Source: a virus. From it: a stretch of DNA of 64,000 bases. The translations under genes were made by a program, and so were the position numbers. How positions within the stretch are numbered: position 1 is the first letter of the stretch; each line of letters opens with the position of its first letter. The stretch is taken from positions 32,001 through 96,000 of the IMG/VR virus record IMGVR_UViG_3300027881_000536. One strand, 5' to 3'. Shown in pieces: positions 1 to 64,000 of the stretch. Below the pieces are notes generated by a model that worked only from the letters and a program-made list of their open reading frames with translations, was not told the origin of the DNA and did no database searches.

Positions 1-3000
1 AAACAGCATGAGGAAGGTGGCCATCATCCGATAGATGACCCTATTGAGGATAGAAAACAGGATGCTGCAGATAATGCTGGTGGGTTGAGGGTCGACGAAT
101 TGATTGACCATATGTATTCGGCTCTAGGTAAGAACATGACGGCTATCGCCAATAATGTAATGGGTCACCCATTAGACCCTGAAGGGACTCATATACCACC
201 GTACTTTGACAAGCACTCACGAGTTAAACAATCAATAATCAGAGAGGGTTTGGAACTAGCGCATTTGTCACCACTGTCTCCTGATTTCAAGAAGAAGAGA
301 GGTAATAAGTCTGGTTATGATACTCCAGAAGGTGGTAGAACTAGTCAGAAGAGTATGGCTCAAATCATGAAAGTCCTTGATTTGCTTGATGAAGTAGGAG
401 TACCAAAGGGGTGGAATATCGACAATCCTGACATCATGGAGGAATTTGATAGAGTAGTTCTTCCTTATCTTGATAACAAATTCAAGAATAGTGCTCGAGA
501 TAGATTCGAGAGTTGGTTTCACACAGACCCTAAAGCCAAGTTGAGAGGGAGGGCTAGAGAATATCAATCAGCCATGGCTCATGATAATTGGTCTTTGGAA
601 GCGAGAGTAGAAGGCGAGACATCGGAACCACATGAGATTACTGAGAATCATGACATGAGTCCTTCTTGGTTATGGCACCACAGTTTACCAAAGACTGGGT
701 ATAATTTGTATGGGCCTGATATTGCTGAGATTCTCTATGGGGTTATCCCTTGTCTTGGTGAGAAGGTGAAAAATAGTGAGAAGATACTTTTCGATTCGAT
801 GGGCACTCGCCCTCCTCATTTTGACAAAGAGAAGAGTAATGAGCATCCTGATAATTATGACTATGCAGAGTGGCTAAAGGGGATTGGTAATGGTCCAGCA
901 CCAGAGACTTGGGATAATGACCCTAGTATACCATTCACAGAAAAAGGTGGTATGTCAGGTTTAGCCATGGAGATTGATGCCTATCTAAGAGGTGGTGAGT
1001 TGGGACCAATAATGGGAGAAGTCTACAAGAGATTCTACGGTGATTTACCCCTTAATCCTCACAAGGGTGATTTCGTAAGTAGACTCTTGAAAGGGCGCCT
1101 TGGGGAGGTTTATGGTGAACATGAAGAGGCTACAATGGCAGAAGACTCACCAGAGCGAGCCAGACAAATAGGTATGACAGAAATGAAAGATGTCACTGGT
1201 GAGAGTGCAGTTGGTGAGCGTTCTAGTGGGTATGGGGTTAGAGTGGCTGGACCTTCTGAAGTGACAAGGAGAAAGGAGGCTGACATAGCAGGGGCTCCAG
1301 ATACACTGCCGAAATCTATCGTAGAAAATTACCCCCTAGGTAGGCGACCTCTCAATGAGAGGATACTTAGGATGATGCTTCCTATTGCTGGTGCTAAAGA
1401 TACTTTCTTCTTGAGAGAGGCATTACAAATGGGGCTTAGAGAGCCAGCGTTACAATTGCTAGAAGCGTTACGAAAGAAATGGGGCGGGGCTGCTGTACCG
1501 AAAAATGAAATGGAAGACCGCTTACTTACTATGGATGAGGCTGTTGATAGAAGGACAGATGAACTAGGGCAGATGGTTGACAGGGCGACTATTCTAAGAG
1601 GTTCATCAGGAGGCATAGTTTTCCCTTATCATAATCGTGGCCTTATAATGCCTGCAGATACTCTGAGGATGATAGAACTAGGGCAGATGTATCCTGGCTT
1701 GGTCAACCAGAGTAACCATGACGGCTATAGGGATGAGGGGGCCAGTAGAGGTTCTGCAATTCTAGACCAACTTGGTCGTAGTGGAGTTACAGAGAACAGA
1801 GGGCTGACTGCTGCTATGTTGGGATTACTTTGCTCAGCATTGATGGGTGGTGGCTCTGCTGAACCTTGGTCATTTGAACATAGAGGGAATGAGAAGGCTT
1901 TGGTTGTAGACCACCCTGGACAATGGGGAGATGAATTCATGGGAAATTTGGCTAATTGGATTCGTAAGCAGCCACATCCACACATTGAGGGAGAGGAAAT
2001 TGGAAACCAATTAGGTGGTTGGGAGAATGAAGATTGGCGTCATCGTGTGGCTGACAAGAGATTCATCTACCCTGTCAATAAGCACATGAATGATGAGGGC
2101 ATAGAGGAATATAGATTACCTTTCAAGAAGACCGGTGGTAAGCATGGTCTGCAATTCAAGGTTCCTGATTTAGATGTATGCAGTCCTTATCCCGAGAAAG
2201 CATTAGGAGATGGATTGAGTTTTTCGCACCCATTCAGTATACAAAACCAATTGCAGGATATAGTCGGCTCCAGAGGTATCTATCCTTCTTGGACTACACC
2301 TAGAGATGGAGAACAGCATATCCAATCCATGCCTAAGCCGTGGATGGTGATTCCCAAAGAGAGTATCATAAATTACAATGGGCAAGACTATGTTGTTGCT
2401 GAACACCCTTCTGTAATCAAGGACGAGTTTAGTAACTATCTATCTGATTATGATAAGAGTCAAGGTAACAAACAACATAAGGACCTGATACTAGGACTTC
2501 GGAGAGAGGCTAAAAATATGGCTCCCAAGATGGAGGGGGGATGGGAGAAGAGTGAGAAGCAACGAGGATGGATGATGACCATGGAAATGTTGACTAGGGC
2601 TGTGGGGACAGGTCACCAAGCGGCTAAGGCCGTTTTACCTTTCATAATGGCCCACCTTGCTTCTAATCATACCCCTGATATAGAACAAGGAAATCAAAGT
2701 GAGTCTCAATGGAAGTTGGATGATTTCACGGAGAAGTATCTAAGGCAGCACAAAGGAGATACTTCTGAGGAGGCTCAAAGGAAATATGCTACATTATGCC
2801 ACTTGTACGAATTGGCTTGGAATTATGCAGACCGTCATGGCCCTGTTAAAAGAGGCTTATTCCTTGAGCAATTAGAGAAGCAAGGTCATAACTTCACTGA
2901 TGAACAGAAGGAAGGATTCCTAAGTCCTGATTTGAATGTGAACAGTGTGCAAGGTCATAAGGAATTCGTCATGCCCAAACATGGGATGGACACAAACCAT

Positions 3001-9534: not shown

Positions 9535-9544
9535 GGTGACGACT

Positions 9545-10521: not shown

Positions 10522-10522
10522 T

Positions 10523-12136: not shown

Positions 12137-12398
12137 TGACATATTCAAGAAAGCAAAGGAGGGTCTTAAACCAACAATACAGAATGTTAGAAAGCAATCT
12201 ATCTGGTCACCTGAAGGGAGAATGTTTCTAGATGCTGCTGCTAGTGCTGCAGGATACAAGGCTGATGACGCCGGTAATCTCATAGATGAGAGCGGGCGTG
12301 CCCTACCCAAGGAGCACGCGGATTACCAGTGGGTTAAGAGTATGGCAGAGCGTCAAGCAGCAGTGGAAAGTCCAATCGGTAGGGAGTTGTTAGAATGA
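12129..12398 (+). CDS. 89-aa hypothetical protein; candidate capsid cargo
   Basis: TTG start with GGAGGTGA upstream; overlaps both neighbours; N-terminal FKKAKEGLK. Confidence 0.6.
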   Translation: MTDDIFKKAKEGLKPTIQNVRKQSIWSPEGRMFLDAAASAAGYKADDAGNLIDESGRALPKEHADYQWVKSMAERQAAVESPIGRELLE

Positions 12399-12790
12399 GT
12401 GCGTTTGACTTGACTTGGATTAATCTCAAGAAAGCATGGTATGACAACGAGGATTTTCGTGGAGACCCAGATGATGAGGAGGCTCATAGGCGGGGAGAAG
12501 AAGAGGACCATCAAAATTGGCTGAATGACCCTAAGAATCAGGACGATAGTCCTAACGAGAGGGTAGATGCCCCCACCTTGGATTCTAATCACATCTTGAG
12601 GTTGACTAGACCACAACTGGATAAACTTATGGAGGACATTCAAAGTGAGATTCAGCGTAGAGAGACTAAAAAAGCCAACAAGAATGTGGCTGTTGTCAGT
12701 AACAGCCCAAGAGACCTGAGTAGCGACCCTTCCTCACCAGCAGGTAAAGATTGGATAAAGAACAACTCTTGGGCATTTGATGGTGGTTGA
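12395..12790 (+). CDS. 131-aa acidic hypothetical protein; candidate capsid cargo
   Basis: ATGA overlap; N-terminal FDLTWINLK-K. Confidence 0.65.
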   Translation: MSAFDLTWINLKKAWYDNEDFRGDPDDEEAHRRGEEEDHQNWLNDPKNQDDSPNERVDAPTLDSNHILRLTRPQLDKLMEDIQSEIQRRETKKANKNVAVVSNSPRDLSSDPSSPAGKDWIKNNSWAFDGG

Positions 12791-12791
12791 T

Positions 12792-13229
12792 ATGGCTGAA
12801 TCCATAGAACTTTTGGTATCATTATTCGACACGAGTTGGAATCGTGCTAACAGTGGTCAGAGAAAGCCAGTGATAATGGACATCACCACACTAGACCCTG
12901 GTAGAGGTAAGAGGTTCGACCTTAACCGCAGTGATGCCGTTTTTATGTATGAGACTGCTCATAACGAGGAGCAACCTGAGATATTCTATGACTATGTCAA
13001 CACTCGAATCAATGTAACCATCGACATACGAACTACACGAGGTAGAAGTCATTTGATGAATATGGAAGATGAAGTGAGAAGAATCATTCATAGTAAGAGA
13101 AAAGGGGACGCTGGTAACTACGACCGACTACTCTATAAGACGAGGACTGACTTGTCAGATAGGACCAAGCATCTACATAGAATGACCTTTCAGGTCGAAA
13201 TCGTAATATTCAGTGAACTAGTCGCATAG
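12792..13229 (+). CDS. Putative tail terminator/completion protein
   Basis: About 145 aa with an alpha/beta pattern, just upstream of the tail tube gene. Start placed at ATG 12792. Confidence 0.5.
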   Translation: MAESIELLVSLFDTSWNRANSGQRKPVIMDITTLDPGRGKRFDLNRSDAVFMYETAHNEEQPEIFYDYVNTRINVTIDIRTTRGRSHLMNMEDEVRRIIHSKRKGDAGNYDRLLYKTRTDLSDRTKHLHRMTFQVEIVIFSELVA

Positions 13230-13240
13230 GGTGAGAGGAC

Positions 13241-31000: not shown

Positions 31001-34000
31001 TGGCCACAGTCATAGCCTTACAGTGGAACGGTACCACCTATGATTTCGTATTGGCTGAGGCTCTCAAGGCTGATGTCAGAGGCTGTGAGGTCTATCTGAA
31101 TGAGGTGATTTTGGACATAGACCCATCACCTAATCAGCAATTTACTAGCCTCCCGACATTAGCACTTTATAATCCACTAGGAGTGAATGAATCTACCTCG
31201 CCTGCTTGGAGTCGCAAGAGTCTACCTTACTATCCTGGTATGTTCCAACTTGCTAGTCCAGGCTATACTCTCACTGTGCCTTGGTGGTCACCAGCATATA
31301 CCACTGCTAGTGGGACACTTACCAATGGCGTGTTTGCAGGAGTCAATACTGATACCCAAGGCAATTCATATAATTGGAGAAACACTGAACAGTATCATCC
31401 TAATCACTACTATCACTTTTCTCGAACTGGTTACGGTTCCGTAGGCGCTCAGTCAGTCATGACTGGCTATCCTACCCATTATCTGAACCCGTATCTACAT
31501 TCTTATGAGTCACTCAATCCTAGTTGTGTAATCAAGTATGCTGATGATGGTAATGACCAAATATTGGTAGACAATAATAATTTATTCCCAGAAGTTTCGT
31601 TTGTTTACGATGATTGTATGTTGACTGTTATTGACCCAGATGGAGGTACATATGAAGCCAACTATGGTTATCGTGGGCAGGCTAGTGGTGAAGAAAATGC
31701 TACCACGAACAGATTCTATCAAGTGAATGGTTCAACACAATTCTGGGCCGCTTGTATTGAAGGTAGGAGGTTGACCCTTACTGGTACTACTAGGAAGCCA
31801 GGGGAAGTCTATACTGACAAACTATCCAGTGTTGCTGCTCATCATATACAGGACCTAAGAGCAGGTACTGGTGATACTGGCACTAGTCATCTACCCGACG
31901 CCTATCTATCCATGTGGCATTACAATCTTGGTAGACCCATGACATATTACTCTGATAATAGGGCAAGCGCAACTGCTGCTGCTGTAGATAAGAAGCCCTA
32001 CAACCATCTACCTGAGCACTATGAAACTGTACACTATCATGACTTTGGTTATGTTGCTAGTGATGGTCCCTTTGACTTTAGGGGATATGGTTGGGATGAT
32101 GATGGGGCTAACATTGTCACTCCTAACTCAATGGGTACTGGGTCAGGAGATTGGTTCCCTCAAGCCCGCACTGCTAATAGTTTGTACTATCACTATGGCG
32201 CATTCTGGCCTGGTGGCTCACGCTTTGGTGCACAGGCTAGTAGGATGGACCTTTGGGGAACTGCTGGGCCTGGTTGGGGTAGATTCTGGGACTCGGACCA
32301 CATCATACAAGAGCAAAGTACTGCAACACAGTTCAGATATGACAGTGCTTCTGGTATAACTGATAGTATCAGCAGTGTAAATCATAAGAGAAATGCTGCT
32401 TTCGGTTTCCGTTTCTGTGTAAGAGGTCCCTTCAATAGACCAAGGGCTGCGCTTTGGTCTGCCCAAGGGTTCGATGATACCTACGATAATGAGCACGCTG
32501 GTTACAGATTCGGACCATATGTACAGAATGATGCAGTTACTGCTGCTATCTATACTCCAGCAACTAATGCTAATACTTCTACTGCAGGTACTGAGTCTAT
32601 AGCCTCTGGTTATTCTGGTATCATTGAGAGGTTGACTAATGCTTCAGCCTTAATCGGTTCTGATTTGAAAGGGCAGCAAGTCAAGTATAGTCATGGTAGA
32701 AGAATGTGTAGACCATTCGGCTGTGCTGTTAGGAATATTGTGAATGACCCTTATGCTATACGCCACCACCAAGGAGATTATGTGGCGGGAGCAGCCTCTG
32801 CTGATACTGATATCACCAATAGGAGAAGAGACTTGGCAACAGCCCTCGCTCACTACATGACTGATTGGTGGGGTAATACTACTGGAGAAGATGTGCGTAG
32901 GCTTCCAGTAAGAGGGTTTGGTATCAGACCGGCTTGGGACCCGGAAGATGCTTACAGGGCTACTGATAGAACTAGAAATGCTCAAGTATTTGCTGCTCCA
33001 AGTGGACATGGTAAGGCTCGAGTCACTCTCGATTTATTTGACCCTGCTACTGCTAAGAGAGTAGGAGATAGAGGAGATGGAAGAGGAGTTAGATGGCCTA
33101 CGGTATTCAATGAAGATGTACTACAAGAAGTGGACACTATCATGGATGCTACTGGCTTAGTGCTCTCATCCAATACTGCAGAGCCACCCCTAGGTAATGG
33201 CTATACTCGTGCACGCAATGATGACTTACAACTCAATGAAGTGCCAAGAGGGATTAGTAGGAGACTGGATGTACATGCTGATGATGGTTTGTTGAAACCA
33301 GAAGCCATGGCAGGTTCCAATGTAGAGAAGGCTGCTAATGATTTACTACCAGCAAGTGAAGTTCTGCAGGAACCAATATCCCGTATCGCTCCTCGGATTG
33401 GGCTTGACACTCTGACTATAGGAGAAAGTACAGGGGGCATCGCAAATACTCATGTTGCTCTTGGGACAGAAGCCCATAGCCTACATACAGATAGAGTGGC
33501 GGGTCGTAGATATACATTATCTGGGGGGATAAGAACAAACGATGCATACAGTAAACCCTTAGCCGACTATGACCTTTCATCCCTCTCCTTTGTGCAGAAA
33601 GATGGTCCTAGTGGTAGTTCCAATGTACCTCATTTCGTACAGGTTATGCGACTCAATTATACTCATGGTCTATGGCCTTTGGGTGGTAATCTCATTATGG
33701 ATTTGAGAAACTATACAGAACCTGTGGATGATGAGAATTGGGGTACTCATTTTCAAGGGAGAAATAACTATTGGAGTGCTAATCCCTATGAAACAACCAG
33801 TCACAATGCTGATACTACACGCACTAACAACTCAGATTACTCAATCAAATTCCTACTAAGACCTGTAAGAGTATTGGACCATCGACATCTAGAAATATTC
33901 CGAGACCGATTCACTAATGCATTGAGTGCTACTGCTGCTGGTCGCTATGGGGTCTTCACCTATGATACTCCTAATGCTAGGGCTACTACTGGTGGATTTT

Positions 34001-48722: not shown

Positions 48723-48875
48723 TCACTCTTCTTCATCTTTGGGTAGATTCAAAGCATAAAATGAGAGGTCATTGAGTAGTGAGAAAATCATCCCACCGAC
48801 AGTAATGGCTACAGGTATCACACAGCATAGTGAGAATAGTATGTAAAGCAGGGTAGTAGCCCAATCAATGTCCAT
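48723..48875 (-). CDS. 50-aa single-pass membrane peptide, not in the ORF track
   Basis: Manual translation MDIDWATTLLYILFSLCCVIPVAITVGGMIFSLLNDLSFYALNLPKDEEE; overlaps the chaperonin stop; followed by a second stop. Confidence 0.7.
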   Translation of the reverse strand: MDIDWATTLLYILFSLCCVIPVAITVGGMIFSLLNDLSFYALNLPKDEEE

Positions 48876-50379
48876 CTTCCTGTCCTCTCATCGCTATGAT
48901 GTCGTCAATCCTAAGGACTGAAGTGCCTACTTCTGTGGCACTACTAATCACTTGCTTAACCAGGGACTCTGGCTCCACAATTCCCTTATCTAGTGTGTTG
49001 CAAATCTCACCCACACCGTCATCATCTATGTAGAGACCGATACCTGGCTCTGCTGACCTTAGTTCCATGACCACATCTAAGGGGTCCATGCCAGCGTTGT
49101 TCGCTATGGCTGCAGGGATTATCTCTAGTGCGTCAGCGTATGCCTCCATGCACATGCGCTCTCGAGCACTCATGTTAGCCTGCTTAGCAGCATGAGTTCT
49201 CACTGCCATAGATGCAGCAGAGAAGGCTGCTCCACCACCGGGAAAGCCTCTGTTACCATCCTTCATACTGAGGCAGGTCACACCCACGGCGTCGTCGAAC
49301 GCCCTCTCATATTCATCTAGAGTCTGGCGTGTTGCACCTCTGACTACCAAAGTGGTAGCCTCTCCTGGTCCGGAGACAGTCACGAAGTCTAGGTCACCTA
49401 TCCTTTCCTCCTTCACTGCGATGTCTATCCCATCTACAGGGTCTGTGATGTCCACTACTCTGTGATAGATTGGGACATTGAACAGTCTGGAAAGTGATTC
49501 CATGTCACTCTGTTGTAGTCTAGTGATGAGGGGGATGCCATTCTGCCCTAGGTAATGGGCTACAGCCTCATGGACTGAGTCCCTAACAAATACACACCCG
49601 TTAGGCCCTGTGGCACCAGCAACCATGCTTGCTAGTTCACTGAGCATCTCGAGTTCCTGTTGCTTGAGAGCCTGGAGTTGACCCATGTTCTCAACCTGTA
49701 TCTGGTCTACATCATATCCATCCAGTCCCCCGTTTATGAGTAGCACACTGACCTCACCTGAGACCTCTTTGATATCTCCCACATCGTTAGCGAACTCCTT
49801 GTTCAGAACCAATCCGTCCTGCACATAGGAATCTTTGAGGGAACCACCAGCCTGAGTTATCACCTTGATTCTCTCGAGGTCACCTCCTGCTTTCTCTGCT
49901 GCTTTGAAGCAAAGCGTAGCAGCATAATCAAGTTCACTTTCGGCAGCCTTACCGCGCATGGCAGTCTTGGCTGCATCTAACACATCTATCTCGACTGGGT
50001 CTAGATTGTTGAGAGCAATGTGTTTGCCTCTGTCAAATGACCTGAGTATAACTCGGGGGTGAATACCCCTGAGTAGTAGCCCTTCACTGAGGGCTAGCAT
50101 CTGACCGGCTAACACCACCACACTGGTGGTCCCATCCTTACAGACAGCCTCCTGTGTCTTACTAGCATCTATCATCATCAACGCACCAGGGTGTGCTGCA
50201 TCTAATTCTCTCAGGATAGTCACACCATCGTTGGTCACGATGTTATGATTACCATTGGTCAGCATCTTATCCATACCTGCTGGCCCAAGGGTAGACCTGA
50301 CGGTCTCGGCTATATTCATAGCCGCTTTTATGTTACTCATTTGCGCTTCTCTTCCACTTTGCTGTGTTTTCTCACTCAT
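48865..50379 (-). CDS. ths: Group II chaperonin (thermosome-like)
   Basis: TLGPAGMDKML, VTNDGVTIL, DGTTSVVV, GGGA and ALEIIPAAIANNAG motifs; 504 aa. Confidence 0.95.
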   Translation of the reverse strand: MSEKTQQSGREAQMSNIKAAMNIAETVRSTLGPAGMDKMLTNGNHNIVTNDGVTILRELDAAHPGALMMIDASKTQEAVCKDGTTSVVVLAGQMLALSEGLLLRGIHPRVILRSFDRGKHIALNNLDPVEIDVLDAAKTAMRGKAAESELDYAATLCFKAAEKAGGDLERIKVITQAGGSLKDSYVQDGLVLNKEFANDVGDIKEVSGEVSVLLINGGLDGYDVDQIQVENMGQLQALKQQELEMLSELASMVAGATGPNGCVFVRDSVHEAVAHYLGQNGIPLITRLQQSDMESLSRLFNVPIYHRVVDITDPVDGIDIAVKEERIGDLDFVTVSGPGEATTLVVRGATRQTLDEYERAFDDAVGVTCLSMKDGNRGFPGGGAAFSAASMAVRTHAAKQANMSARERMCMEAYADALEIIPAAIANNAGMDPLDVVMELRSAEPGIGLYIDDDGVGEICNTLDKGIVEPESLVKQVISSATEVGTSVLRIDDIIAMRGQEDGH

Positions 50380-55886: not shown

Positions 55887-58205
55887 TTACCACCAACCAT
55901 ACGCCTTGGGACGGGGTGCTCCAAGAGCACCGTCTATGTCCCAACCAAGGGTAGTGTAAACACTATCTAACTTGGCCTTCAGCATTTTCTGGAGTATTAC
56001 ATCTGAATCTAGCACATAGCCCTCTAACTCAGAGGGTTCTCGATAGGCTATGATGTTGGGAATGCCCTGCACATAGGTCCAGGGAACTGAGTCCCCCTTC
56101 CCAAACTTGGGGCCTTTGGAATCGTCGTTGTAGTTTGTTGCTGCTTTAGCAGCACCACCCAACACCTTGTAGTCTCGGAGTGCCATCCCTAACCTAGTGG
56201 TCAGGGTCACCTCCTTGAGAGGGACTTCACCCTCGCGTATGGACATGGCTATCGGACGGACATAGGATTCTACCTCACCCTCATCTGCTCCGCTACACAC
56301 CATGTTGAACACCTCTTTCTGCACCTTCTTGGATAGGGGTGCTGCGTTGGAGGATTTCATCTCAAAGCCTGCCACTTTTAGTTCACCGCTCATCTTCTTA
56401 CCTACATACCTGTTCTTCTTGACCAGCAACCAGTAAGGCATCCAGTCTTCTAGTTCTACGGACAACATCTTGTTGCCAGTGGCCTCCTGCACAGTCTTCG
56501 TGATTTTGTCGGCCAGCATCTCAGCGTCCTCGTAAGGGACCTTGATGAATACTGAGTCAGTGTGACCATAGAGGCACTCGTAGCCATTGCTAGTGGTGAC
56601 TTGGTCCAGTAGGTGGATGCACCTCCTCCCCTCGTGGGTGATGGTGTGTGCTATGTCTAGGTCAGCCCAGCCATAACCACCATGTGCGGTCATGCCATAG
56701 AGTGAGGCCATGACCCTCTTAATCGCCATCTGTGTGGTGTTCCAAGCACCGCGTTCTTCCTCGGTTTCAGCGTGTCGCATCTTGAACTTACATTCATCTC
56801 GATAGGCGAACAGATACTCTACTACACTAGGTAGCAAACCCTGCTCACTCTGGTCCCAGAAGGTGCCGTTATCGAGTTGGAGTATGTTCTCACCAGGGCC
56901 GTCCCTCTTGGTCTCATAAGAGAGGTTGTTGCCTAAAATGAGAGATGCATACAGCCCCTTGTAATCAAGCAGGCCAACGCCTTGATGCAAACCAGTTACA
57001 AGATTCAGTCCTACTTCTGCACCCTTGAGTGAGCCACTGTCACCTCTGGCTCTGGTTGGAGCCTTCTTGTCTGTCCTCCTTGAGAGTAGACCCCTAGCGA
57101 AGTTAGTCACATTACATGCTGAGGGTAGAGTGACTCCGCAGAGTCTGACCATCTGTATGTAGAAGTCGGTGACATTCTTGGCCTCATCTATCCCTCTGAG
57201 TAGATGGGTGTCTAGTAGACAGTAGTCCACGAAGTCACCCCAGTGTTTGTACCATCCATTGTGGACATCCATGCCCTCTATATCCTCAGTGAGTTTGGAA
57301 CCTAGGCCTAGCGTCTCTGCTATGTCGTTGAGTTTGAGGGATGGTAGTTGACCACCCCCACTGTCTTTCCATACTCGCTCGAATCCTGTGCCACTGCTGG
57401 CCTGGGCTGCAGTATCGAACTGCCATCTACCTATGATGGGTTGGTCTGTTGGGTCATACCTGTCCTTACCCTTCCTGAATCTCCTGACCTTTCCCACTGG
57501 ACTCATTCGCTCAGGGTATGGAATCCTGTTGATGAGGTGAGGTAGGTCTGCGAATGTCCCCGCGTGTGCAATTAGCATGTCGGGGTCGCGCTCACGCATG
57601 AATGATATGAAGGCCTCATGGAGTTCATGTTCTGAGTTGAAGAATCTTAGTTCATACTCTACATCACGAGCCATTCTCATTTGTGTGTCACCATGAGGTA
57701 TGTATTCCCACACATTGGTGCGTTCGTCAGCCCAAGCAAAGACCACTGGCGTGTCTAAGTCGCTGTCTATCACAGCGATGACTGTGGTGAATGGGTCATC
57801 ACCAGTGTCCCATTCTATGTCATACCACCACTTTCGTGGCTTCCAGTCTGGCATAACTTGGACATTGTCTATCAGCCAGCGGTCTGTGAATCTAATATCA
57901 GCCTCGTATGTGTTGCTGAATTGCTCCCTCATCCTTGTAATCTCAAAGGGAGACTGTGCCTCTACTTTCACCAGTGGTGTGCCGTCGAGGCCAACGGCTT
58001 GCTCCTCGTAGATGACTCTGCTTTCTGGGAATCTAGTCATCACCCTCCTGAACTGGAAGTCAGGAGAGTTCTTTGGCACCCAGAAGTATGGCTTGTAACT
58101 CCTATCTGTGTGCTCGATGAGGTTACCCTCCTCATCACGGTATCGTGAGTATATGATGGGTTGCTCACCATTCTCATAGTAATCATCGACTATCATTCTG
58201 AACAC
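55887..58205 (-). CDS. polB: Family B DNA polymerase with variant motifs
   Basis: ExoI YDIEW, ExoIII YCLLD, motif A DYKGLYAS, motif B KRVMASLYG, motif C YGHTDS. An alternative ATG at 58196 overlaps the upstream stop (ATGA). Confidence 0.95.
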   Translation of the reverse strand: MFRMIVDDYYENGEQPIIYSRYRDEEGNLIEHTDRSYKPYFWVPKNSPDFQFRRVMTRFPESRVIYEEQAVGLDGTPLVKVEAQSPFEITRMREQFSNTYEADIRFTDRWLIDNVQVMPDWKPRKWWYDIEWDTGDDPFTTVIAVIDSDLDTPVVFAWADERTNVWEYIPHGDTQMRMARDVEYELRFFNSEHELHEAFISFMRERDPDMLIAHAGTFADLPHLINRIPYPERMSPVGKVRRFRKGKDRYDPTDQPIIGRWQFDTAAQASSGTGFERVWKDSGGGQLPSLKLNDIAETLGLGSKLTEDIEGMDVHNGWYKHWGDFVDYCLLDTHLLRGIDEAKNVTDFYIQMVRLCGVTLPSACNVTNFARGLLSRRTDKKAPTRARGDSGSLKGAEVGLNLVTGLHQGVGLLDYKGLYASLILGNNLSYETKRDGPGENILQLDNGTFWDQSEQGLLPSVVEYLFAYRDECKFKMRHAETEEERGAWNTTQMAIKRVMASLYGMTAHGGYGWADLDIAHTITHEGRRCIHLLDQVTTSNGYECLYGHTDSVFIKVPYEDAEMLADKITKTVQEATGNKMLSVELEDWMPYWLLVKKNRYVGKKMSGELKVAGFEMKSSNAAPLSKKVQKEVFNMVCSGADEGEVESYVRPIAMSIREGEVPLKEVTLTTRLGMALRDYKVLGGAAKAATNYNDDSKGPKFGKGDSVPWTYVQGIPNIIAYREPSELEGYVLDSDVILQKMLKAKLDSVYTTLGWDIDGALGAPRPKAYGWW

Positions 58206-58380: not shown

Positions 58381-59136
58381 TCAATCCCCTCTTTGGTCCA
58401 AGATAACTAGCAGATGCTCCTTCTCCATGTGGCGCAGTATTAGCACGAACTTGTGCGAGGTGTATAGTTCTACCACTCCCGAAGGGATGCAGTTAACAAC
58501 ACTTGGAAACCAACCACCGAAACTTGACTCACAGGTCTTGGGTGGTCCAGCACAATCTTCTATGTCTACACTCAATGTCATGTTAGCAGTTCCTTTCTCA
58601 CCTGCAGTAATGTTCCACACCTTGTTTTTCACAGAGAATTGAGTGTTGATAGCGTGGTTCTTCCCTACTATCTTCTCGAGGGTCTGCACCTGCATGAGGT
58701 CAGAGGTGTGCAACTTACCGTAACAGGTTAGAGGTTCCCCTCCCCAATGCTTCCAGTTATCTCGTTCACTGTCCTCTTTGAGAGCCAGTGCCTTACTCGT
58801 CCTTACATTGGAGTGGACATACTCACTGTATGGTAGGGTGAGGTCTACATTGCCTGAGAGGACACGCAATGGTGTTTCTGAGGGCTGGTAGAGGCTCACC
58901 ATTGACTCCTTTGGTAGAGCCTTGGTAAATGTCAGGAGTTTACCTAGGTCTGAGATGACTATTGCACCTGAGTCTTCCACATCAGCACTCACACTAGTGT
59001 GCAACATGTGTGTCTTCATTGCAACGGTCCCAGTGAGGGACATATCCCGAGCCTCGAGCCTGAGGTCCCCCACCCCAGGCCCAAAGCCGTTCAACAGAAC
59101 GAGGAGTGCTTCCTTGCCAATATTTACTCGAGCCAA
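58381..59136 (-). CDS. Divergent PCNA-like sliding clamp
   Basis: 251 aa (PCNA size); alternating beta/alpha pattern with two similar halves; lies between PolB and RFC/RPA genes. Sequence similarity is weak by eye. Confidence 0.62.
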   Translation of the reverse strand: MARVNIGKEALLVLLNGFGPGVGDLRLEARDMSLTGTVAMKTHMLHTSVSADVEDSGAIVISDLGKLLTFTKALPKESMVSLYQPSETPLRVLSGNVDLTLPYSEYVHSNVRTSKALALKEDSERDNWKHWGGEPLTCYGKLHTSDLMQVQTLEKIVGKNHAINTQFSVKNKVWNITAGEKGTANMTLSVDIEDCAGPPKTCESSFGGWFPSVVNCIPSGVVELYTSHKFVLILRHMEKEHLLVILDQRGD

Positions 59137-59187: not shown

Positions 59188-60150
59188 TCACCCCTTAAGT
59201 TCAGGAAGCCCATGCCACTTGAGTGGCTTGTCGTCATATGTGCTCATCACCAGTCGGGTCTTATCCAACATCTCAGGTAGATTACGAGCCTTGGCGAATG
59301 TGGCCTCATAGGTGGTTTCACCTGTAGGGAAACCCTCATCGTCACGAATCTGCGTTTTCTTCATTTCTATGATGGTATGTAGATAGTTGCTCGTCTGCTT
59401 TTCCCATTTTGGTTTCTTAGCACCAGTAGCGGTCCCATCGGCCCTCTGTTCGTATTGCCAGTGTGTTTCATACCACACATTGACTCCCAAACGGGTCAAT
59501 TCTCGACATAGTGAAGTTAGTTGGTGGAACCGCGTACTGCGAATCTGCCAATTGAACCTCATACCCACTTTCTCGTGAGGACTGATTTTAGCACCAATTC
59601 CGTCAGGAGCGGTGCCTAGGTCCTCGATGAACATACAGGCCATGGAAACTGAGTCCCAAAGGTCTGTAGCAGTCACTAGGACTGTATTCAGTCTCTGACC
59701 CTTGTAGTTAGGTTCTAGTTGGTCTCTAGCCCAATTTAGGGCCTCCCTCCCTATTTCCATTACTTTGTCGTGTGTAGCAGGGTAGTTGTAAGCGGTTCGA
59801 GCCTCGTCCTGCATCACCCATGGATTGATTGACTTGAAATCTGACCTTCTATGGTTGTAGAAAGCGTCCCTGAGGGATGCGCCCCCACCATCGAAGTCTA
59901 CAATGACACAGGCGTCACCCTCAGGTATGCTGTTCAGGATGATGGCCGTTTTACAGGTCCCATCGTCACCTACTATACCACCGAACTCGCCGGTAATGGG
60001 TGCGATTTCCTCAGCGAAGTATTTGTCTCCTCGATGTTGTTGAGCCTTCTCCACAGGAGTGGCACCTCCAGGTGGCCCCGGAGTCAATGGTTTATCATTG
60101 GCTTTTGGGTCTATTATCTCCTTATCCTTTAGATTCTTGAAACCACTCAT
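59188..60150 (-). CDS. RecA-fold P-loop ATPase (Sak4/AAA_24-like recombination protein)
   Basis: Walker A variant GDDGTCKT, IVDFDGG, Walker B-like VLVTATD; C-terminal beta strands. Confidence 0.65.
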   Translation of the reverse strand: MSGFKNLKDKEIIDPKANDKPLTPGPPGGATPVEKAQQHRGDKYFAEEIAPITGEFGGIVGDDGTCKTAIILNSIPEGDACVIVDFDGGGASLRDAFYNHRRSDFKSINPWVMQDEARTAYNYPATHDKVMEIGREALNWARDQLEPNYKGQRLNTVLVTATDLWDSVSMACMFIEDLGTAPDGIGAKISPHEKVGMRFNWQIRSTRFHQLTSLCRELTRLGVNVWYETHWQYEQRADGTATGAKKPKWEKQTSNYLHTIIEMKKTQIRDDEGFPTGETTYEATFAKARNLPEMLDKTRLVMSTYDDKPLKWHGLPELKG

Positions 60151-60338
60151 TGTTGGAACCCCCTATAGTGATTCTCACGAGCAGATTCCCACATATGCCT
60201 TATTTCGGCAGTCATATCAAGTGACTCATCTTTGCTGATATTTGGGTCTTTAGCATTCTCACGAATCCACTTAGCGATGGTTTTGTCATCATCACCATTG
60301 TGTAGCATGATATCTATGTTCTTGAAGAACCCCATCAC
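60147..60338 (-). CDS. 63-aa hypothetical protein
   Basis: GTGA/ATGA overlaps on both sides. Confidence 0.65.
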   Translation of the reverse strand: MMGFFKNIDIMLHNGDDDKTIAKWIRENAKDPNISKDESLDMTAEIRHMWESARENHYRGFQQ

Positions 60339-61681
60339 TCTACCCCCTTGAACTGGTCTAGTGAGGTATTACCGCCTTCACCAGCAGGTATCGCTAGTCT
60401 CGGTGGAGCATATACACCCAAAGCCCTCATTGTGGGTACTTCCTGTTTACCATCTTCTACAGCCCTTAGTCCCAATCTACCGAAAATGTAGACTGTTGAC
60501 TTCACTGCATAAGGCTTCCAACCCTTTCGACCCTTGTAGTCGAATACATGACAGTCTTGACCTAAGAATCCATGAACTCTGATAGAGACTTCTTGTTTCC
60601 ACATATTGTCCGGGAATTCTCTCTGTAGAGCAAATGATGACACTCTCATGGTGTAATTGACACCTGCTGGGTCATATTCGCTCTCGTATCCTGTCTGGTT
60701 GATATCTGTCACTTTTCCTTTGATACAAACCAAAGGACCGATGGGGTTGTCGAACCCTTCAATGGTCTCAGACTCTGAGCGATAGACATCCATTAGGTCG
60801 GATAGGTCTGATACATAACAGTCCATCCCACCCATCAACAGGTCACCCTTGAGGTATTCCCTGTCGTCCTCGCTCACGAACTCCTTGTTGTAGTGGATTG
60901 ACTTGAAGAAATTGCTCATTCCTCGCCACATATCCTCCCAACCGGGATTCACATTCTCTGGTTGAGGCCTTACTTTGACAGTGCAAGGTTCACCGAATAC
61001 TACATGTTGAGATACACTCAATTCAGTAGAGCCACTCACATCAATTCTGAACAGTTCCATCTCATCCTCAAACCTTTCAGGGGTATTTCCATAGAATCGG
61101 TAGGTTCTGCTGAACAGGTAGGGTGAGATAGGTTCACCATGTCTTGCCCAGTCAGGGTTTTCTTGTAGGATGGCTAATGTCATCCCACTGTCCCTAACTA
61201 GGAACCAAGGGTCATTATCCTCGTCAAACCTCTCTTGGGTCGACGCTACTATTCCCATAGCCTTCTCAAGCATCCATACCTCGTTTTCTACGAAGGCTCT
61301 GGCTACTGTGCCTTTCTCGATAGCAGCACCTAAGTCTTCTTTGGCGAATTGTATAGCATTCTCTCTCACATTCTCTCTCTTGTCTCGTATCTTGGGTTCT
61401 ACACCTACGAAGCATCCCACTAACTCGGTGGAACTCCCTCCCGGTGTGCTCATCACCCTTCTCTCAACCACGAAGGTCTCAGCGGCATCCACTAGGAAAT
61501 CGTCGTCCTCTTCGTGGGTGTTAACGATTCCGAGATGTTCCTCGATGTAAGCGAGGTATTGTTCCACGGCCTTGTGTTGGCTGATACTATGATGTTCAGC
61601 ATACCAATGTAGTCGTTCTAACACTTCTTCTGGCAATTCTTCTTTGTTTTCATTTTTCTTTTTCAGCGTGCTCATTTTCAC
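60335..61681 (-). CDS. RPA-like multi-OB-fold ssDNA-binding protein with a C-terminal PIP-like tail
   Basis: OB-like strands (VCIKGKVTDI, VYIFGRL); replication context; tail NTSLDQF. Confidence 0.55.
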   Translation of the reverse strand: MKMSTLKKKNENKEELPEEVLERLHWYAEHHSISQHKAVEQYLAYIEEHLGIVNTHEEDDDFLVDAAETFVVERRVMSTPGGSSTELVGCFVGVEPKIRDKRENVRENAIQFAKEDLGAAIEKGTVARAFVENEVWMLEKAMGIVASTQERFDEDNDPWFLVRDSGMTLAILQENPDWARHGEPISPYLFSRTYRFYGNTPERFEDEMELFRIDVSGSTELSVSQHVVFGEPCTVKVRPQPENVNPGWEDMWRGMSNFFKSIHYNKEFVSEDDREYLKGDLLMGGMDCYVSDLSDLMDVYRSESETIEGFDNPIGPLVCIKGKVTDINQTGYESEYDPAGVNYTMRVSSFALQREFPDNMWKQEVSIRVHGFLGQDCHVFDYKGRKGWKPYAVKSTVYIFGRLGLRAVEDGKQEVPTMRALGVYAPPRLAIPAGEGGNTSLDQFKGVE

Positions 61682-62591
61682 TCCTCATTCTCTTCTCTTC
61701 TCTCCCGTTAGGGAGGGACAGAGACCCCACGAACCAGTCAATAAACCCTCTGTTATCTAGAGGCCATTGGTGGGTCGAAAGGACTGCGTCCCCCCATACC
61801 TTGGAGTAGTGGTGGAACCTATCTGGCTCCATATCTAAGTCGCGCACTCTATCGTGCAACATGTTGAGTATAGTCATCATATTCCTGCCTGGTTGGTTGA
61901 GTGAGTAGAGTTCTTCTCTCAATGATACCCAATCTCCACCAGCGATGGAAAGGGAGGCTTCAGACAGCATCTCTGCTTTGATGGTGGCCATATTTTCGAG
62001 TTCTCTAGCGTCCTGCACAGTTTGGGCCGCTATGCCGAGACTGCGAAGGTCTCCATTGAAAGCCATACCTATCTTGCCGATATTGTAGCCGTTCCACCCA
62101 TATGTTGACTTACATAGGTGTCTGAAGTTCTTTTGCAGAAACGCATGCACATGGGTGGTCCCGTATGGCGCGAAATGTAGTGTGTGGCATCGCGAGCGCA
62201 ACGCGGGTATGATGTTAGCCTCTTCGTTGGCTGTGAGTATGAACAGCGCATGACCTTTCTCTATGGTCCTGCGTAGGGCGTCTTGGGCCTGTCTTGTGAG
62301 ACCATCTGCCTCATCGAGTAGTATGATGGTGGTATCACTGTAGCCACGCTGTGTTGCTACCTGCTTCACACGCGTGCGTATGAAGTCTATACCGCGCTCA
62401 TCAGAGGCATTGAATTCGTGCACATCAGCATCTAGGAACTGACCTACTGCTAGTGCTGTAGAGGTCTTACCAGTGCCTGGAGGCCCTACGAATAAGAGGT
62501 CAGGGACATTGTTTGACTCACATAATTCTCTCACTTGGCAGATGGGATGGGTGGAATCATCACTCCCAATCAAGTCCTCGAATGTCAACAT
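61650..62591 (-). CDS. rfcS: Replication factor C (clamp loader) small subunit
   Basis: LLFVGPPGTGKT, EFNASDERGIDFIR, LLDEAD, AQDALRR and LRSRC RFC boxes. Confidence 0.95.
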   Translation of the reverse strand: MLTFEDLIGSDDSTHPICQVRELCESNNVPDLLFVGPPGTGKTSTALAVGQFLDADVHEFNASDERGIDFIRTRVKQVATQRGYSDTTIILLDEADGLTRQAQDALRRTIEKGHALFILTANEEANIIPALRSRCHTLHFAPYGTTHVHAFLQKNFRHLCKSTYGWNGYNIGKIGMAFNGDLRSLGIAAQTVQDARELENMATIKAEMLSEASLSIAGGDWVSLREELYSLNQPGRNMMTILNMLHDRVRDLDMEPDRFHHYSKVWGDAVLSTHQWPLDNRGFIDWFVGSLSLPNGREEKRMRSENEHAEKEK

Positions 62592-62617: not shown

Positions 62618-62623
62618 CTTATA
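62618..62623 (-). promoter_or_regulatory. Putative TATA box for the RFC gene
   Basis: TATAAG on -, overlapping the upstream stop, 27 nt before the ATG at 62591. Confidence 0.4.
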
Positions 62624-62978
62624 CTATTTCCTCGAACTGTCTCATAAGTTCGGAGATGTCACCATGATTCATCTTACGAGCAGTAGGGGCATCCATAGTG
62701 ATTAGCAATTTCTGTAGGTTACCCCCATCCTTCACTGCCTCCCATACGGGTGCTAGAAGTGAGAGGACCTTCTGTATCTGCTCCTTGTCCCTCAAGACTC
62801 TACCATGCACACCCTTTGTTGCAAGCCATAGATTCAGTTCGGGTTCGTCTTCCATACTTGTATACACCTTTCGATGCACTTTGTATCCTAGTTTCCGCTT
62901 GGGGGAGAAGTGAATGCTGGCTTGGAAGCGAGCATCTCGGGCTAGCCATGCTAGGAAGAAATCATCGTGCCTGTCCAT
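62619..62978 (-). CDS. Degenerate single-domain LAGLIDADG-like protein
   Basis: FFLAWLARDARFQASI...KLGYKV follows the LAGxxDxDGxF-x-I...GYxV layout but with a non-canonical core. Confidence 0.5.
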   Translation of the reverse strand: MDRHDDFFLAWLARDARFQASIHFSPKRKLGYKVHRKVYTSMEDEPELNLWLATKGVHGRVLRDKEQIQKVLSLLAPVWEAVKDGGNLQKLLITMDAPTARKMNHGDISELMRQFEEIV

Positions 62979-64000
62979 TACCTTCCCTCTCTATGATATC
63001 GCCGTATTGGAGTGCATCACTCATCCCTAGCCCTGTGTCTATACGGACGAGATATGCTCCTTCGAGTCTGTGGTCCCTGCAACGCAGGGCGTGAAACAGC
63101 CCCACTAGGGGTATTTCGAGTTCTGTCCATACCTTCCTTCTACAGGCTTCCGTGAGTATGGAGTTATCAGGGAGATTTTCCCTCTTGACATTAGCATACC
63201 CCACATGAATGGGGTCAAAACCGTCTAGAGCCTCTATCCTCAAGTCTATCCACTCACCATTCTTCTGCTCTTTGGCTTGGGTTATGAGGAGTGGCATCTC
63301 ATAGATTCTTTTGGGCTGGATGAAGCCCCCTCTGTGCTGACCATGAATGTGTGGTTTGTCTCCATCAATGAGTCTGAGCACTTCCCCATCTTCCATAGCC
63401 TGTGAGAGTGTCCTGAGATGAGCAGCATCTCTTATTCTCTGAGGTTTTACTGACCTTGCTTGGTATTCCATTTCCCACTGGTCGGGGTTGGCTTCTGTGT
63501 GGAGCCACTCTATCACATCCCCCCCTTCGTCTACCAAAGCCACACAGTCTCCTCCTATGGCTAGGTCTGCTGGTGCGTTAGGTAGTATCTCACCCATGCC
63601 GTCATACACGAAGATGTCATCTTGGTATTGGTGCGCGTACCTGCGTGGACCTGATACAATCTCGTAGTAAGTGTTCAAGAATGGGACAGACCAGTATTTC
63701 CAGGGACCGAATGATGGGGCCCTGAATGGGTGGCCTGGTTGAATGCGAAATTCATCAGAAAGAGTACCTTCTATAGCCCTACCAAGGACTACTGCGATAT
63801 TCTCCACTGATAGAGCACTTGTAAGCCTCTCTGGGGGGTACTTACCTCCACCATGTGCAACGGCTCTGAGCAGCCTCTTACGGGGCAAAACTGGCCTTTC
63901 TCCGAGGGCTCTACACCATAGGGCTTCTGCAGACCTCTTATCCATCTTAGCGAAGATGGCTTTTATGTCTGGAGCAGTCTCTATGACTCTCAATTCTGAG
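62962..64000 (-). CDS. Degenerate ATP-dependent DNA ligase-like protein (frame open to the window edge; N-terminus probably truncated)
   Basis: Co-linear with archaeal ligase: AEALWCRALG...LLRAVA, IQPGHPF, YYEIVSGPRRYAH (KxDGxR position), EVLRLIDGDKPH, OB-like EMPLLIT...HVG...LVRID. No catalytic Lys. Confidence 0.65.
   Translation of the reverse strand, partial: SELRVIETAPDIKAIFAKMDKRSAEALWCRALGERPVLPRKRLLRAVAHGGGKYPPERLTSALSVENIAVVLGRAIEGTLSDEFRIQPGHPFRAPSFGPWKYWSVPFLNTYYEIVSGPRRYAHQYQDDIFVYDGMGEILPNAPADLAIGGDCVALVDEGGDVIEWLHTEANPDQWEMEYQARSVKPQRIRDAAHLRTLSQAMEDGEVLRLIDGDKPHIHGQHRGGFIQPKRIYEMPLLITQAKEQKNGEWIDLRIEALDGFDPIHVGYANVKRENLPDNSILTEACRRKVWTELEIPLVGLFHALRCRDHRLEGAYLVRIDTGLGMSDALQYGDIIEREGNGQAR

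What the first reader, a model, noticed from the sequence alone, without database searches (positions are those of the whole stretch)
62962..64000. Second, independent dead ligase in the replication module
This ORF is co-linear with archaeal ligase (DNA-binding domain end, adenylation domain, OB domain). KxDGxR is replaced by EIVSGPR (63631-63663), and the motif IV/V lysines are gone. It shows no obvious sequence identity to the head-module copy. Two separately inactivated ligase folds with no active ligase in this window suggest a recurring non-enzymatic role, such as nick shielding, clamp-loader or PCNA partner, or competitor of host ligase.
Basis: partly seen in the sequence, partly recalled or inferred. 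Interest (0 to 1): 0.75.

Follow-up and report, generated by a model that had tools for sequence, protein, structure and literature searches.

The report
Dead DNA ligase in viral replisome
A marine archaeal virus of the magrovirus type keeps, next to its clamp-loader gene, an intact and strongly conserved copy of a three-domain DNA ligase that has lost the lysines needed to seal DNA, so it most likely works as a DNA-binding part of the replication machinery, not as an enzyme.

Summary
The gene lies on the minus strand and runs off the window: stop at 62962-64, probable GTG start at window-equivalent 64305, about 447 aa. No sequence library recognises it (Pfam, PHROGs, PDB). An AlphaFold model (pLDDT 84) matches archaeal and eukaryotic three-domain ATP-dependent DNA ligases over 439 residues (VIA-align Z 17.4; Foldseek E 8e-13).

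A collinear profile alignment places Ile231 at the motif I nucleophile position (EIVSGPRRYAH, 63631-63663). The motif IV lysine and the first motif V lysine are also gone. No lysine is invariant anywhere among 40 homologues.

It is not a pseudogene. dN/dS is 0.03-0.08, as low as for the neighbouring RFC and PolB genes. The gene order dLig - p119 - RFC - p448 - p320 - PCNA - PolB holds in all 51 related viral loci. All 64 readable ORFs upstream of p119 lack KxDGxR.

The complete 118-kb genome has no recognisable active ligase.

The non-enzymatic role itself (nick or junction binder in the replisome) is inferred. A PCNA docking run gave no verdict.

Other first-stage notes of this scan, on this same genome only, flagged the same gene and the head-module copy.

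Verdict: a real feature, a new inactivated variant of a known enzyme family, moderately high interest.

The parts
62962..64000 (-). dLig: 3' 345 codons plus stop of the inactivated three-domain ligase homologue. The full gene runs to window-equivalent 64350 (first GTG) or 64305 (probable start, residue 16).
   Evidence: ORF. 42 close homologues and 26 cluster representatives, none with a Pfam domain. Model pLDDT 84. Ligase fold.
63751..64000 (-). C-terminal part of the helical DNA-binding-domain equivalent (residues about 16-200; the N-terminal part lies beyond the window end).
   Evidence: VIA-align model range 16..458 against chain 12..562 of Thermococcus ligase 3rr5. hhalign is collinear from residue 16.
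63307..63750 (-). Shrunken nucleotidyltransferase (adenylation) domain, residues about 201-348. It is about 148 aa, against about 205 aa in active ligases.
   Evidence: Residues 202-348 align to the LigIIIa NTase domain (10ye_L 387-592) at rmsd 2.3 A over 144 residues, Z 13.2. Gaps in hhalign remove, among others, the segment between motifs III and IIIa.
63631..63663 (-). Degenerate motif I, EIVSGPRRYAH. Ile231 is at the lysine-nucleophile position and Ser233 at the Asp position. Gly234, Arg236 and His240 are retained.
   Evidence: Translation, alignment to active ligases. Column counts: I 24, K 10, V 5, T 1. Ile/Val is the state throughout the deep tree.
63541..63555 (-). Motif III equivalent, GGDCV. 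Asp268 replaces the ribose-binding Glu and is present in 39 of 40 sequences.
63367..63384 (-). Motif IV equivalent, EVLRLI. The Glu is kept (E323) and the Lys is replaced by Ile328. A nearly invariant Arg326 lies two residues earlier.
63307..63330 (-). Motif V equivalent, GGFIQPKR. The first Lys is replaced by Gln/Leu (position 345). The second position is Arg/Lys (347), and Arg348 is invariant.
62965..63306 (-). OB-fold domain equivalent, residues about 349-462.
   Evidence: Beta-rich secondary structure. Covered by the full-length alignments to ligases.
62619..62978 (-). p119: a small conserved gene whose ATG lies 17 nt inside the 3' end of dLig (probable translational coupling). Its fold resembles a single-motif LAGLIDADG domain.
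   Evidence: Overlap. Present directly downstream of dLig in all loci. Model pLDDT 85. Foldseek hits I-TnaI, I-CreI and I-Vdi141I at E 7e-4 to 1e-2, TM 0.6-0.7.
61650..62591 (-). RFC small-subunit-like clamp-loader ATPase, next gene downstream in the same block.
   Evidence: Pfam AAA 3e-16 and DNA_pol3_delta2 1e-11.
58381..59136 (-). Candidate sliding clamp (PCNA).
   Evidence: No Pfam or PHROG hit. The nearest ESM Atlas clusters are viral 'PCNA N-terminal domain' and sliding-clamp clusters, score 0.96: a lead only.
55887..58205 (-). Family B DNA polymerase of the same replication block.
   Evidence: ORF. tblastn hits to halovirus PolB genes. Pfam DNA_pol_B on the syntenic gene of L081.

Best explanation
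The gene encodes a pseudo-ligase: a descendant of a three-domain (DBD-NTase-OB) archaeal-type ATP-dependent DNA ligase that can no longer form the lysyl-AMP intermediate. It is nevertheless an obligatory, co-transcribed part of the replication module of this magrovirus-type archaeal virus.

Shown: the ligase architecture; loss of the motif I nucleophile, the motif I Asp, the motif IV Lys and the first motif V Lys; a shortened NTase domain; strong purifying selection; fixed gene order beside p119 and RFC; restriction to viral contigs; and no recognisable active ligase in the complete genome.

Inferred: the protein keeps the DNA-encircling, nick- or junction-recognising scaffold of a ligase. Part of the nucleotide/5'-phosphate pocket survives (Gly234, Arg236, His240, Asp268, Glu281, Glu323, Arg/Lys347). 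It would act stoichiometrically in the viral replisome, holding or marking 3'-OH/5'-P discontinuities on the lagging strand or at replication starts and coupling them to the viral clamp and clamp loader. Actual sealing would be left to the host ligase.

Confidence that it is a selected, catalytically disabled ligase homologue is about 0.9. Confidence in the specific DNA-discontinuity-binding replisome role is about 0.45.
For: Fold: Foldseek top 47 PDB hits are all three-domain ATP-dependent ligases (best 3gde, E 8.3e-13). VIA-align gives Z 17.4 with 439 residues aligned to 3rr5, and the NTase domain alone aligns at rmsd 2.3 A. BFVD hits are viral DNA ligases, including that of Halogranum tailed virus 1. 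The nearest ESM Atlas family-bearing clusters carry PF01068+PF04679+PF04675 (score 0.91).

Active site: hhalign of the family against 5 active archaeal ligases is collinear over 440 columns (E 7.6e-4) and gives the residue map used here. No Lys is invariant in 40 sequences, and Ile/Val is ancestral at the nucleophile position.

Selection: dN/dS is 0.03-0.08, against RFC 0.10-0.19 and PolB 0.13-0.15 on the same genome pairs.

Context: gene order is identical in 51 of 51 IMG/VR loci and in a 30%-identity clade. All 64 readable ORFs upstream of p119 are 170-477 aa and lack KxDGxR. There is no homologue in 185,579 cellular genomes.

No active ligase: PF01068 gives only a 16-bit hit in the head-module ORF, and PF01653, PF09414 and PF04679 give nothing in the 100%-complete genome. 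A 98%-complete relative has no PF01068 hit.

Precedent for a structural role of a ligase without catalysis: catalytically inactive Lig4 supports end joining (PMC9638927, PMC11754673, PMC3694833; titles and abstracts seen).
Against: No DNA-binding, PCNA-binding or RFC-binding evidence was obtained.

The protein is acidic overall (net charge -23, pI 5.05). The five active archaeal ligases used as reference are equally acidic, so this does not discriminate.

The residue map rests on one profile alignment of modest probability (25%), built on a thin 5-sequence reference, plus a predicted structure. No coordinates could be inspected.

Several pocket residues are retained, and ten homologues carry Lys at the motif I position, so residual chemistry cannot be excluded.

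Published magrovirus papers call the module's ligase genes 'ATP-dependent DNA ligases' without mentioning inactivation (PMC5434244). I could not establish whether they refer to this family.
Confidence: 0.55

Rival explanations
1. Nick-and-hold initiation or anti-ligase module. dLig shields specific nicks or ends from the host ligase, possibly nicks made by the co-translated LAGLIDADG-like p119. The 3'-OH then stays available for RFC/PCNA/PolB loading, or the genome keeps programmed discontinuities.
For: p119 overlaps the dLig stop by 17 nt and always follows it. p119 has a LAGLIDADG-like fold and keeps an acidic residue at the position of the catalytic Asp, by my reading of the alignment. RFC is the next gene. 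The virus has no ligase of its own.
Against: The LAGLIDADG match is weak (E 7e-4 to 1e-2), and at 119 aa p119 is shorter than I-CreI. No nick sites, target repeats or origin were looked for or found. Nothing shows that the two proteins bind each other.
Confidence: 0.15
2. Cryptically active enzyme.
For: Gly234, Arg236, His240, Asp268, Glu281, Glu323 and Arg/Lys347 are retained. Ten homologues have Lys at the nucleophile position. Engineered adenylation-dead RNA ligases that join pre-adenylated substrates exist (PMC3514331; abstract seen).
Against: No invariant Lys exists anywhere. The motif I Asp, the motif IV Lys and the first motif V Lys are missing in all members, including those with Lys at position 231. 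That Lys is derived and shallow in the tree. The segment between motifs III and IIIa is deleted.
Confidence: 0.1
3. A ligase-fold protein recruited to a role unrelated to DNA discontinuities, for example a nucleotide-sensing regulator, an RNA-binding factor, or a decoy that titrates a host factor such as host PCNA or a defence protein that senses ligase.
For: The fold alone does not fix function. The NTase domain is strongly remodelled. An invariant acidic loop (L..SESP, residues 96-101, low pLDDT) looks like a protein-docking motif. In the profile alignment it falls where the archaeal ligases carry a 'KSQxTFF' motif.
Against: It is embedded in a tight replisome operon with unchanging order across deep divergence. 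All three DNA-encircling domains are retained in full.
Confidence: 0.1
4. A decaying pseudogene or an annotation artefact.
For: No profile library recognises it.
Against: The 447-aa frame is intact in more than 60 viral contigs. dN/dS is 0.03-0.08. There are 46 invariant columns among 40 sequences, and the fold prediction is confident.
Confidence: 0.01

Closest known systems
Archaeal three-domain ATP-dependent DNA ligases (LigB/Lig1 type; e.g. Thermococcus sp. 1519 3rr5, P. furiosus 2cfm, S. solfataricus 2hiv/7rpx)
   Same: Same DBD-NTase-OB order and fold over the whole length (Z 13-17). Collinear motif order I-III-IIIa-IV-V. Located in a replication module with PCNA and RFC.
   Different: About 13-15% identity and below all Pfam ligase thresholds. 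The nucleophilic Lys, the motif I Asp, the motif IV Lys and the first motif V Lys are lost. The NTase domain is about 55 residues shorter. The PIP-like 'QxxFF' element of the DBD is replaced by an invariant acidic SESP loop.
Magrovirus 'ATP-dependent DNA ligases' of the replicative and structural modules (Philosof et al. 2017, PMC5434244)
   Same: Same kind of virus: thermosome, PolB, RFC, clamp, AEP, and two oppositely transcribed modules. One ligase-like gene sits in the replicative block and another in the structural block, as that paper describes for groups A and B.
   Different: The paper describes them as ligases with readily detectable similarity and does not mention inactivation. This family is undetectable by HMMER and lacks the catalytic lysines. 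I could not check whether it is the same gene as any of theirs (no supplement held; type records absent from the collection).
Catalysis-independent (structural) function of DNA ligase IV in end joining
   Same: A three-domain ligase scaffold that contributes by binding and bridging DNA and partners without sealing (PMC9638927, PMC11754673, PMC3694833; abstracts seen).
   Different: There the inactive forms are laboratory point mutants of an active enzyme. Here the inactivation is natural, ancient and family-wide.
Halovirus three-domain DNA ligase (Halogranum tailed virus 1, R4T9C5)
   Same: Among the best viral structural matches (E 1.5e-9, 475 aa). It comes from tailed haloarchaeal viruses, which are the nearest cultured relatives of magroviruses.
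   Different: It is annotated as DNA ligase. I did not inspect its motifs. No sequence-level similarity was found (tblastn against the phage collection found nothing).

Membership tests
ATP-dependent DNA ligase (EC 6.5.1.1; Pfam PF04675/PF01068/PF04679) | Three-domain architecture: helical DBD, nucleotidyltransferase domain, OB domain, in that order. | tested here: met
   Foldseek E 8e-13 to archaeal ligases. VIA-align Z 17.4 with 439 residues aligned, model 16..458 against chain 12..562.
ATP-dependent DNA ligase (EC 6.5.1.1; Pfam PF04675/PF01068/PF04679) | Motif I KxDGxR with the lysine that forms the covalent enzyme-AMP. | tested here: not met
   EIVSGPR: Ile231 at the Lys position and Ser233 at the Asp position. 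The column reads I 24, K 10, V 5, T 1, and Asp is present at position 233 in only 2 of 40. No Lys is invariant anywhere.
ATP-dependent DNA ligase (EC 6.5.1.1; Pfam PF04675/PF01068/PF04679) | Motif III acidic residue (DGE) and motif IIIa. | tested here: inconclusive
   Glu is replaced by the near-invariant Asp268, and motif IIIa 'FD..Y' reads 'IEWLH'. The character is conserved but the residues are not identical.
ATP-dependent DNA ligase (EC 6.5.1.1; Pfam PF04675/PF01068/PF04679) | Motif IV EGxxxK lysine. | tested here: not met
   EVLRLI: Ile/Leu/Val at the Lys position in 38 of 40 sequences.
ATP-dependent DNA ligase (EC 6.5.1.1; Pfam PF04675/PF01068/PF04679) | Motif V (W)LKxK lysines. | tested here: not met
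   FIQPK: the first Lys is Leu/Gln/Met in all 40. The second position is Arg 32 / Lys 8. It is not conserved in distant members.
ATP-dependent DNA ligase (EC 6.5.1.1; Pfam PF04675/PF01068/PF04679) | Match to the curated sequence models above the gathering score. | tested here: not met
   No PF01068, PF04675 or PF04679 hit for the protein at E <= 10. Six-frame genome search gives nothing at this locus. One distant homologue reaches 12.7 bits.
ATP-dependent DNA ligase (EC 6.5.1.1; Pfam PF04675/PF01068/PF04679) | Nick-sealing and self-adenylation activity. | not testable with these tools
   Needs purified protein.
PCNA-interacting replicative ligases (PIP-box or PIP-like motif) | A Qxx[LIM]xx[FY][FY]-type or QKSFF-type clamp-binding motif and binding to the cognate clamp. 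| tested here: inconclusive
   No canonical PIP box was seen in the alignment. The invariant SESP loop aligns with the archaeal 'KSQxTFF' segment. Binding could not be assessed.
LAGLIDADG homing endonuclease (for neighbour p119) | alpha-beta-beta-alpha-beta-beta-alpha core with the LAGLIDADG helix carrying a catalytic acidic residue. | tested here: inconclusive
   Foldseek E 7e-4 to 1e-2, TM 0.6-0.7 to I-TnaI, I-CreI and I-Vdi141I. The N-terminal helix 'FFLGWLAR[DE]xRF' keeps Asp/Glu. There is no Pfam or PHROG hit, and it is fixed in synteny, not mobile.

The most novel reading that the evidence does not exclude
A viral replisome has converted a DNA ligase into a non-catalytic 'nick holder'. 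Together with the co-translated LAGLIDADG-like p119 and the adjacent clamp loader, it would create or capture a DNA discontinuity, keep it from being sealed by the host ligase, and hand the 3'-OH to RFC/PCNA/PolB. That would be a new way to start or restart replication. Paired with the second ligase-like domain in a giant head-module protein, it would point to a recurrent non-enzymatic use of the ligase ring in these abundant ocean viruses.
Probability: 0.12. Interest if true: 0.8.

Novelty: new variant of a known kind. Interest (0 to 1): 0.62.

Why it matters
Magrovirus-type viruses are among the most abundant archaeal viruses in the surface ocean. They are cited for carrying a near-complete archaeal-type replisome, 'including ATP-dependent DNA ligase'.

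If the replicative-module 'ligase' of a large clade is in fact a conserved pseudoenzyme, and the genome has no active ligase, two things follow. First, these viruses depend on the host ligase for sealing. Second, they offer a natural example of a ligase scaffold selected for a non-catalytic job, a role so far known mainly from engineered Lig4 mutants.

The case is directly testable with recombinant protein. It also gives a handle on how Okazaki-fragment maturation or replication initiation is organised in an uncultured virus-host system.

Tried and rejected
Searches and look-ups that found nothing:
- Sequence-level searches found no family: Pfam, PHROGs, PDB by phmmer and by profile.
- tblastn against 50,697 phage records gave no match.
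- 185,579 cellular genomes contain no relative.
- The broad alignment A2 was too divergent for the search for related loci.
- ICTV type records ON649702 and OR863078 are not in the held collections. The magrovirus clade and the published annotation of this gene could therefore not be checked.
- The supplement of PMC5434244 is not held.

Tests without a usable result:
- Co-folding of dLig (residues 16-462) with the viral PCNA candidate gave no verdict: score 0.00, controls not run. This is neither support nor evidence against binding.
- Sequencing runs: 24 DNA holders in seawater or marine metagenomes, but no RNA holder listed. Nothing can be said on expression, and read laying was not used.
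- hhalign of the head-module C-terminus against active ligases was uninformative (E 0.44).
- Net charge and pI per domain do not discriminate, because the active archaeal ligases are equally acidic.

Readings rejected:
- Decaying pseudogene, rejected on dN/dS and conservation.
- RFC large-subunit equivalent, rejected because there is no AAA+ fold.
- p119 supplying a lysine in trans, rejected because p119 has no invariant Lys.

Literature: searches found no paper describing a natural catalytically dead ligase paralogue in these viruses. Absence from this library is not proof of novelty.
Full report
**Location and gene model.** The window is positions 32001-96000 of a 118,155-bp virus record rated 100% complete. 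The finding's frame is on the minus strand and is cut by the window end. In the full record it is L001:1563-2951(-), which is window 62962-64350: 462 codons from the first GTG. All homologues begin at the equivalent of residue 16, and the ESM Atlas holds the protein from residue 16. That GTG is preceded by a GGAG-containing stretch. The product is therefore about 447 aa. The ATG of the next gene (p119) lies 17 nt inside the 3' end of this gene.

**What kind of virus.**
- The minus-strand block contains a thermosome (Cpn60_TCP1, E 7e-105), a DnaQ-like exonuclease, an ERCC4 nuclease, an archaeo-eukaryotic primase, a Cas4-like PD-(D/E)XK nuclease, PolB, a candidate PCNA and an RFC-like ATPase.
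- This matches the published description of magroviruses, the viruses of Poseidoniales (Marine Group II) archaea (PMC5434244; PMC10768690).
- The close homologues of the target protein come from marine metagenomes, Tara Oceans included.
- The stretch is held by seawater and marine metagenome runs.

**Is it a ligase fold?**
- No sequence method recognises it: Pfam, PHROGs, and PDB by phmmer or by profile.
- An AlphaFold2 model built on 40 homologues is confident (mean pLDDT 84).
- Foldseek against the PDB returns only three-domain ATP-dependent DNA ligases at the top: Archaeoglobus 3gde at E 8.3e-13, then Pyrococcus, Thermococcus, Sulfolobus and human Lig1/3/4.
- VIA-align gives Z 17.4 with 439 aligned residues spanning model 16..458 against chain 12..562 of Thermococcus ligase.
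- The NTase domain alone (202-348) superposes on LigIIIa at 2.3 A.
- BFVD hits are viral DNA ligases, including that of a halovirus.
- The nearest family-bearing ESM Atlas clusters carry PF01068+PF04679+PF04675.
- The fold assignment therefore rests on three methods, two of which use the same model.

**Is it catalytically dead?** I fetched five active archaeal ligases, all with KxDG, and aligned their profile to the family profile. hhalign gives one collinear alignment of 440 columns at E 7.6e-4, though its probability is only 25% because the reference profile is thin. Read together with the column counts:

| Motif | Active ligase | This protein |
|---|---|---|
| I | K-x-D-G-x-R...H | I231-V-S233-G234-P-R236...H240 |
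| III | DGE | G-G-D268 (D in 39/40) |
| IIIa | F-D-x-x-Y | I-E281-W-L-H |
| IV | E-G-I-M-I-K | E323-V-L-R326-L-I328 |
| V | W-L-K-V-K | F343-I-Q345-P-K347 (position 345 is L/Q/M; position 347 is R/K) |

The roughly 27-residue stretch between motifs III and IIIa, which holds a conserved PFQ...RxRRK element in the reference ligases, is absent. The NTase domain is about 148 aa instead of about 205 aa. Among 40 sequences there are 46 invariant columns, and none of them is a lysine.

Ten sequences do carry Lys at position 231 (EKxSGxR). They form a shallow, derived group nested inside Ile-bearing lineages, and every deep branch has Ile or Val. They share all the other losses. The canonical three-step ligase mechanism (lysyl-AMP formation, AMP transfer to the 5'-phosphate, sealing; established knowledge of the nucleotidyltransferase superfamily) therefore cannot start in this protein. 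Several pocket residues survive (Gly234, Arg236, His240, Asp268, Glu281, Glu323, Arg/Lys347). For that reason I keep a 10% rival for residual chemistry, such as sealing of pre-adenylated nicks.

**Is it a functioning gene?** Nei-Gojobori dN/dS is 0.06-0.08 between the window and three relatives, and 0.03-0.07 among relatives. On the same pairs RFC gives 0.10-0.19, PolB 0.13-0.15 and p448 0.03-0.11.
- The gene order p255 - (p104) - dLig - p119 - RFC - p448 - p320 - PCNA - PolB - Cas4-like - AEP - ERCC4 is identical in all 51 IMG/VR loci found with the protein. It holds down to 35% dLig identity, at which point PolB is about 55% identical.
- The same order recurs in a Tara/ENA clade at 30% identity.
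- Searching with p119 gave 74 loci. All 64 readable upstream ORFs lack KxDGxR, and the full-length ones are 435-477 aa.
- No cellular genome of 185,579 species encodes a relative.

**No active ligase.** Six-frame searches of the complete genome gave the following:
- PF01068 finds only a 16-bit match inside the 2395-aa head-module ORF.
- PF01653 (NAD ligase), PF09414 (RNA ligase) and PF04679 find nothing.
- A 98%-complete relative has no PF01068 hit at all.

The head-module segment reads ...SWPAGTR... at the motif I position and KWVLL at motif V. It shares no detectable identity with dLig. It looks like an independent, equally Lys-less ligase-like domain, but I did not fold it, so that copy remains provisional.

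**Mechanism.** What is shown is the anatomy: a full ligase ring without the chemistry, fixed in the replisome operon, and translationally coupled to a small conserved protein that precedes the clamp loader.

What is inferred is the role. Three-domain ligases encircle nicked duplex, and archaeal and eukaryotic ligases work on PCNA (structures 7rpx and 7qnz appear among the hits). The most economical reading is a stoichiometric binder of 3'-OH/5'-P discontinuities or junctions that operates with the viral clamp and clamp loader, while sealing is done by the host enzyme. A structural, catalysis-independent role for a ligase has precedent in Lig4.

An invariant, low-confidence acidic loop (L96..S98-E-S-P101) falls, in the profile alignment, where the reference archaeal ligases have a 'KSQxTFF' segment. 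This is only a lead for a docking site. The one co-folding job (PCNA monomer with dLig) returned no verdict and is not used either way.

**Neighbour p119.** It folds confidently (pLDDT 85). It resembles single-motif LAGLIDADG endonucleases at weak significance (E 7e-4 to 1e-2, TM 0.6-0.7), and its N-terminal 'FFLGWLAR[DE]xRF' helix keeps an acidic residue. It is fixed in synteny and under dN/dS 0.03-0.06, so it behaves as a domesticated component, not a mobile element. This motivates the 'nick-and-hold' rival and novel case, but nothing tests it yet.

**Comparison with the literature.** Philosof et al. report that group A and B magroviruses carry two distinct ATP-dependent DNA ligases, one in the replicative block and one in the structural block, and that group C has none. 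They say ligases are among the few replication proteins with easily detectable similarity. Later profiles repeat 'ATP-dependent DNA ligase'. None mentions inactivation.

The arrangement here mirrors that description: one ligase-like gene in each module. Both copies, however, lack the lysines, and this one is invisible to HMMER. I could not determine the clade or check their annotation, because no supplement is held and the type records are absent from the collections.

**Verdict.** The 'dead ligase under selection' reading is strongly supported. The specific non-enzymatic role is open. I class it as a new (inactivated) variant of a known enzyme family, with interest 0.62.

Noticed in passing
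window 62619-62978 (-): The 119-aa gene p119 always lies between dLig and RFC. Its start overlaps the dLig stop by 17 nt, and its dN/dS is 0.03-0.06. The predicted fold resembles a single-motif LAGLIDADG endonuclease (weak, E 7e-4), with a conserved 'FFLGWLAR[DE]xRF' helix. It looks like a domesticated, non-mobile LAGLIDADG-like protein in a replisome operon.
   Followed up: partly
window 1-5709 (+), ligase-like part about 4200-5050: The C-terminal part of a 2395-aa ORF in the head module gives a 16-bit PF01068 match (profile positions 117-200). It reads SWPAGTR at motif I and KWVLL at motif V, so it is also Lys-less. There is no sequence identity to dLig. A relative (G002) has the same weak hit. 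I did not fold it.
   Followed up: partly
window 19060-34362 (+); also G000 5784-14900 (+), outside the window: Giant ORFs of 5100 aa and 3038 aa, besides the 2395-aa one, lie on the plus-strand (structural) side of a 118-kb archaeal virus genome. I did not examine them.
   Followed up: no
homologues P0022, P0024-P0027, P0029-P0031, P0033, P0034 (alignment A1): A shallow subclade has Lys at the motif I nucleophile position (EKxSGxR). It still lacks the motif I Asp and the motif IV/V lysines. On the tree this Lys is derived, not ancestral.
   Followed up: yes
L001:2649-2666 (-), residues 96-101, just beyond the window end: An invariant 'L.SESP' loop of low model confidence sits in the DBD. In the profile alignment it falls at the place where archaeal ligases carry a 'KSQxTFF' (PIP-like) segment. 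It may be a docking motif.
   Followed up: partly
window 58381-59136 (-), 59188-60150 (-), 60335-61681 (-): Three conserved replisome-block proteins (251, 320 and 448 aa) have no Pfam or PHROG hit. The 251-aa one is nearest to viral PCNA/sliding-clamp clusters in the ESM Atlas (0.96). By position, the others may be the RadA-like ATPase and the SSB described for magroviruses.
   Followed up: partly
window 48865-50379 (-): A virus-encoded thermosome (Cpn60_TCP1, E 7e-105). Its nearest cellular relatives found in the genome collection were only 31-33% identical (Methanobrevibacter, ANME-2).
   Followed up: partly
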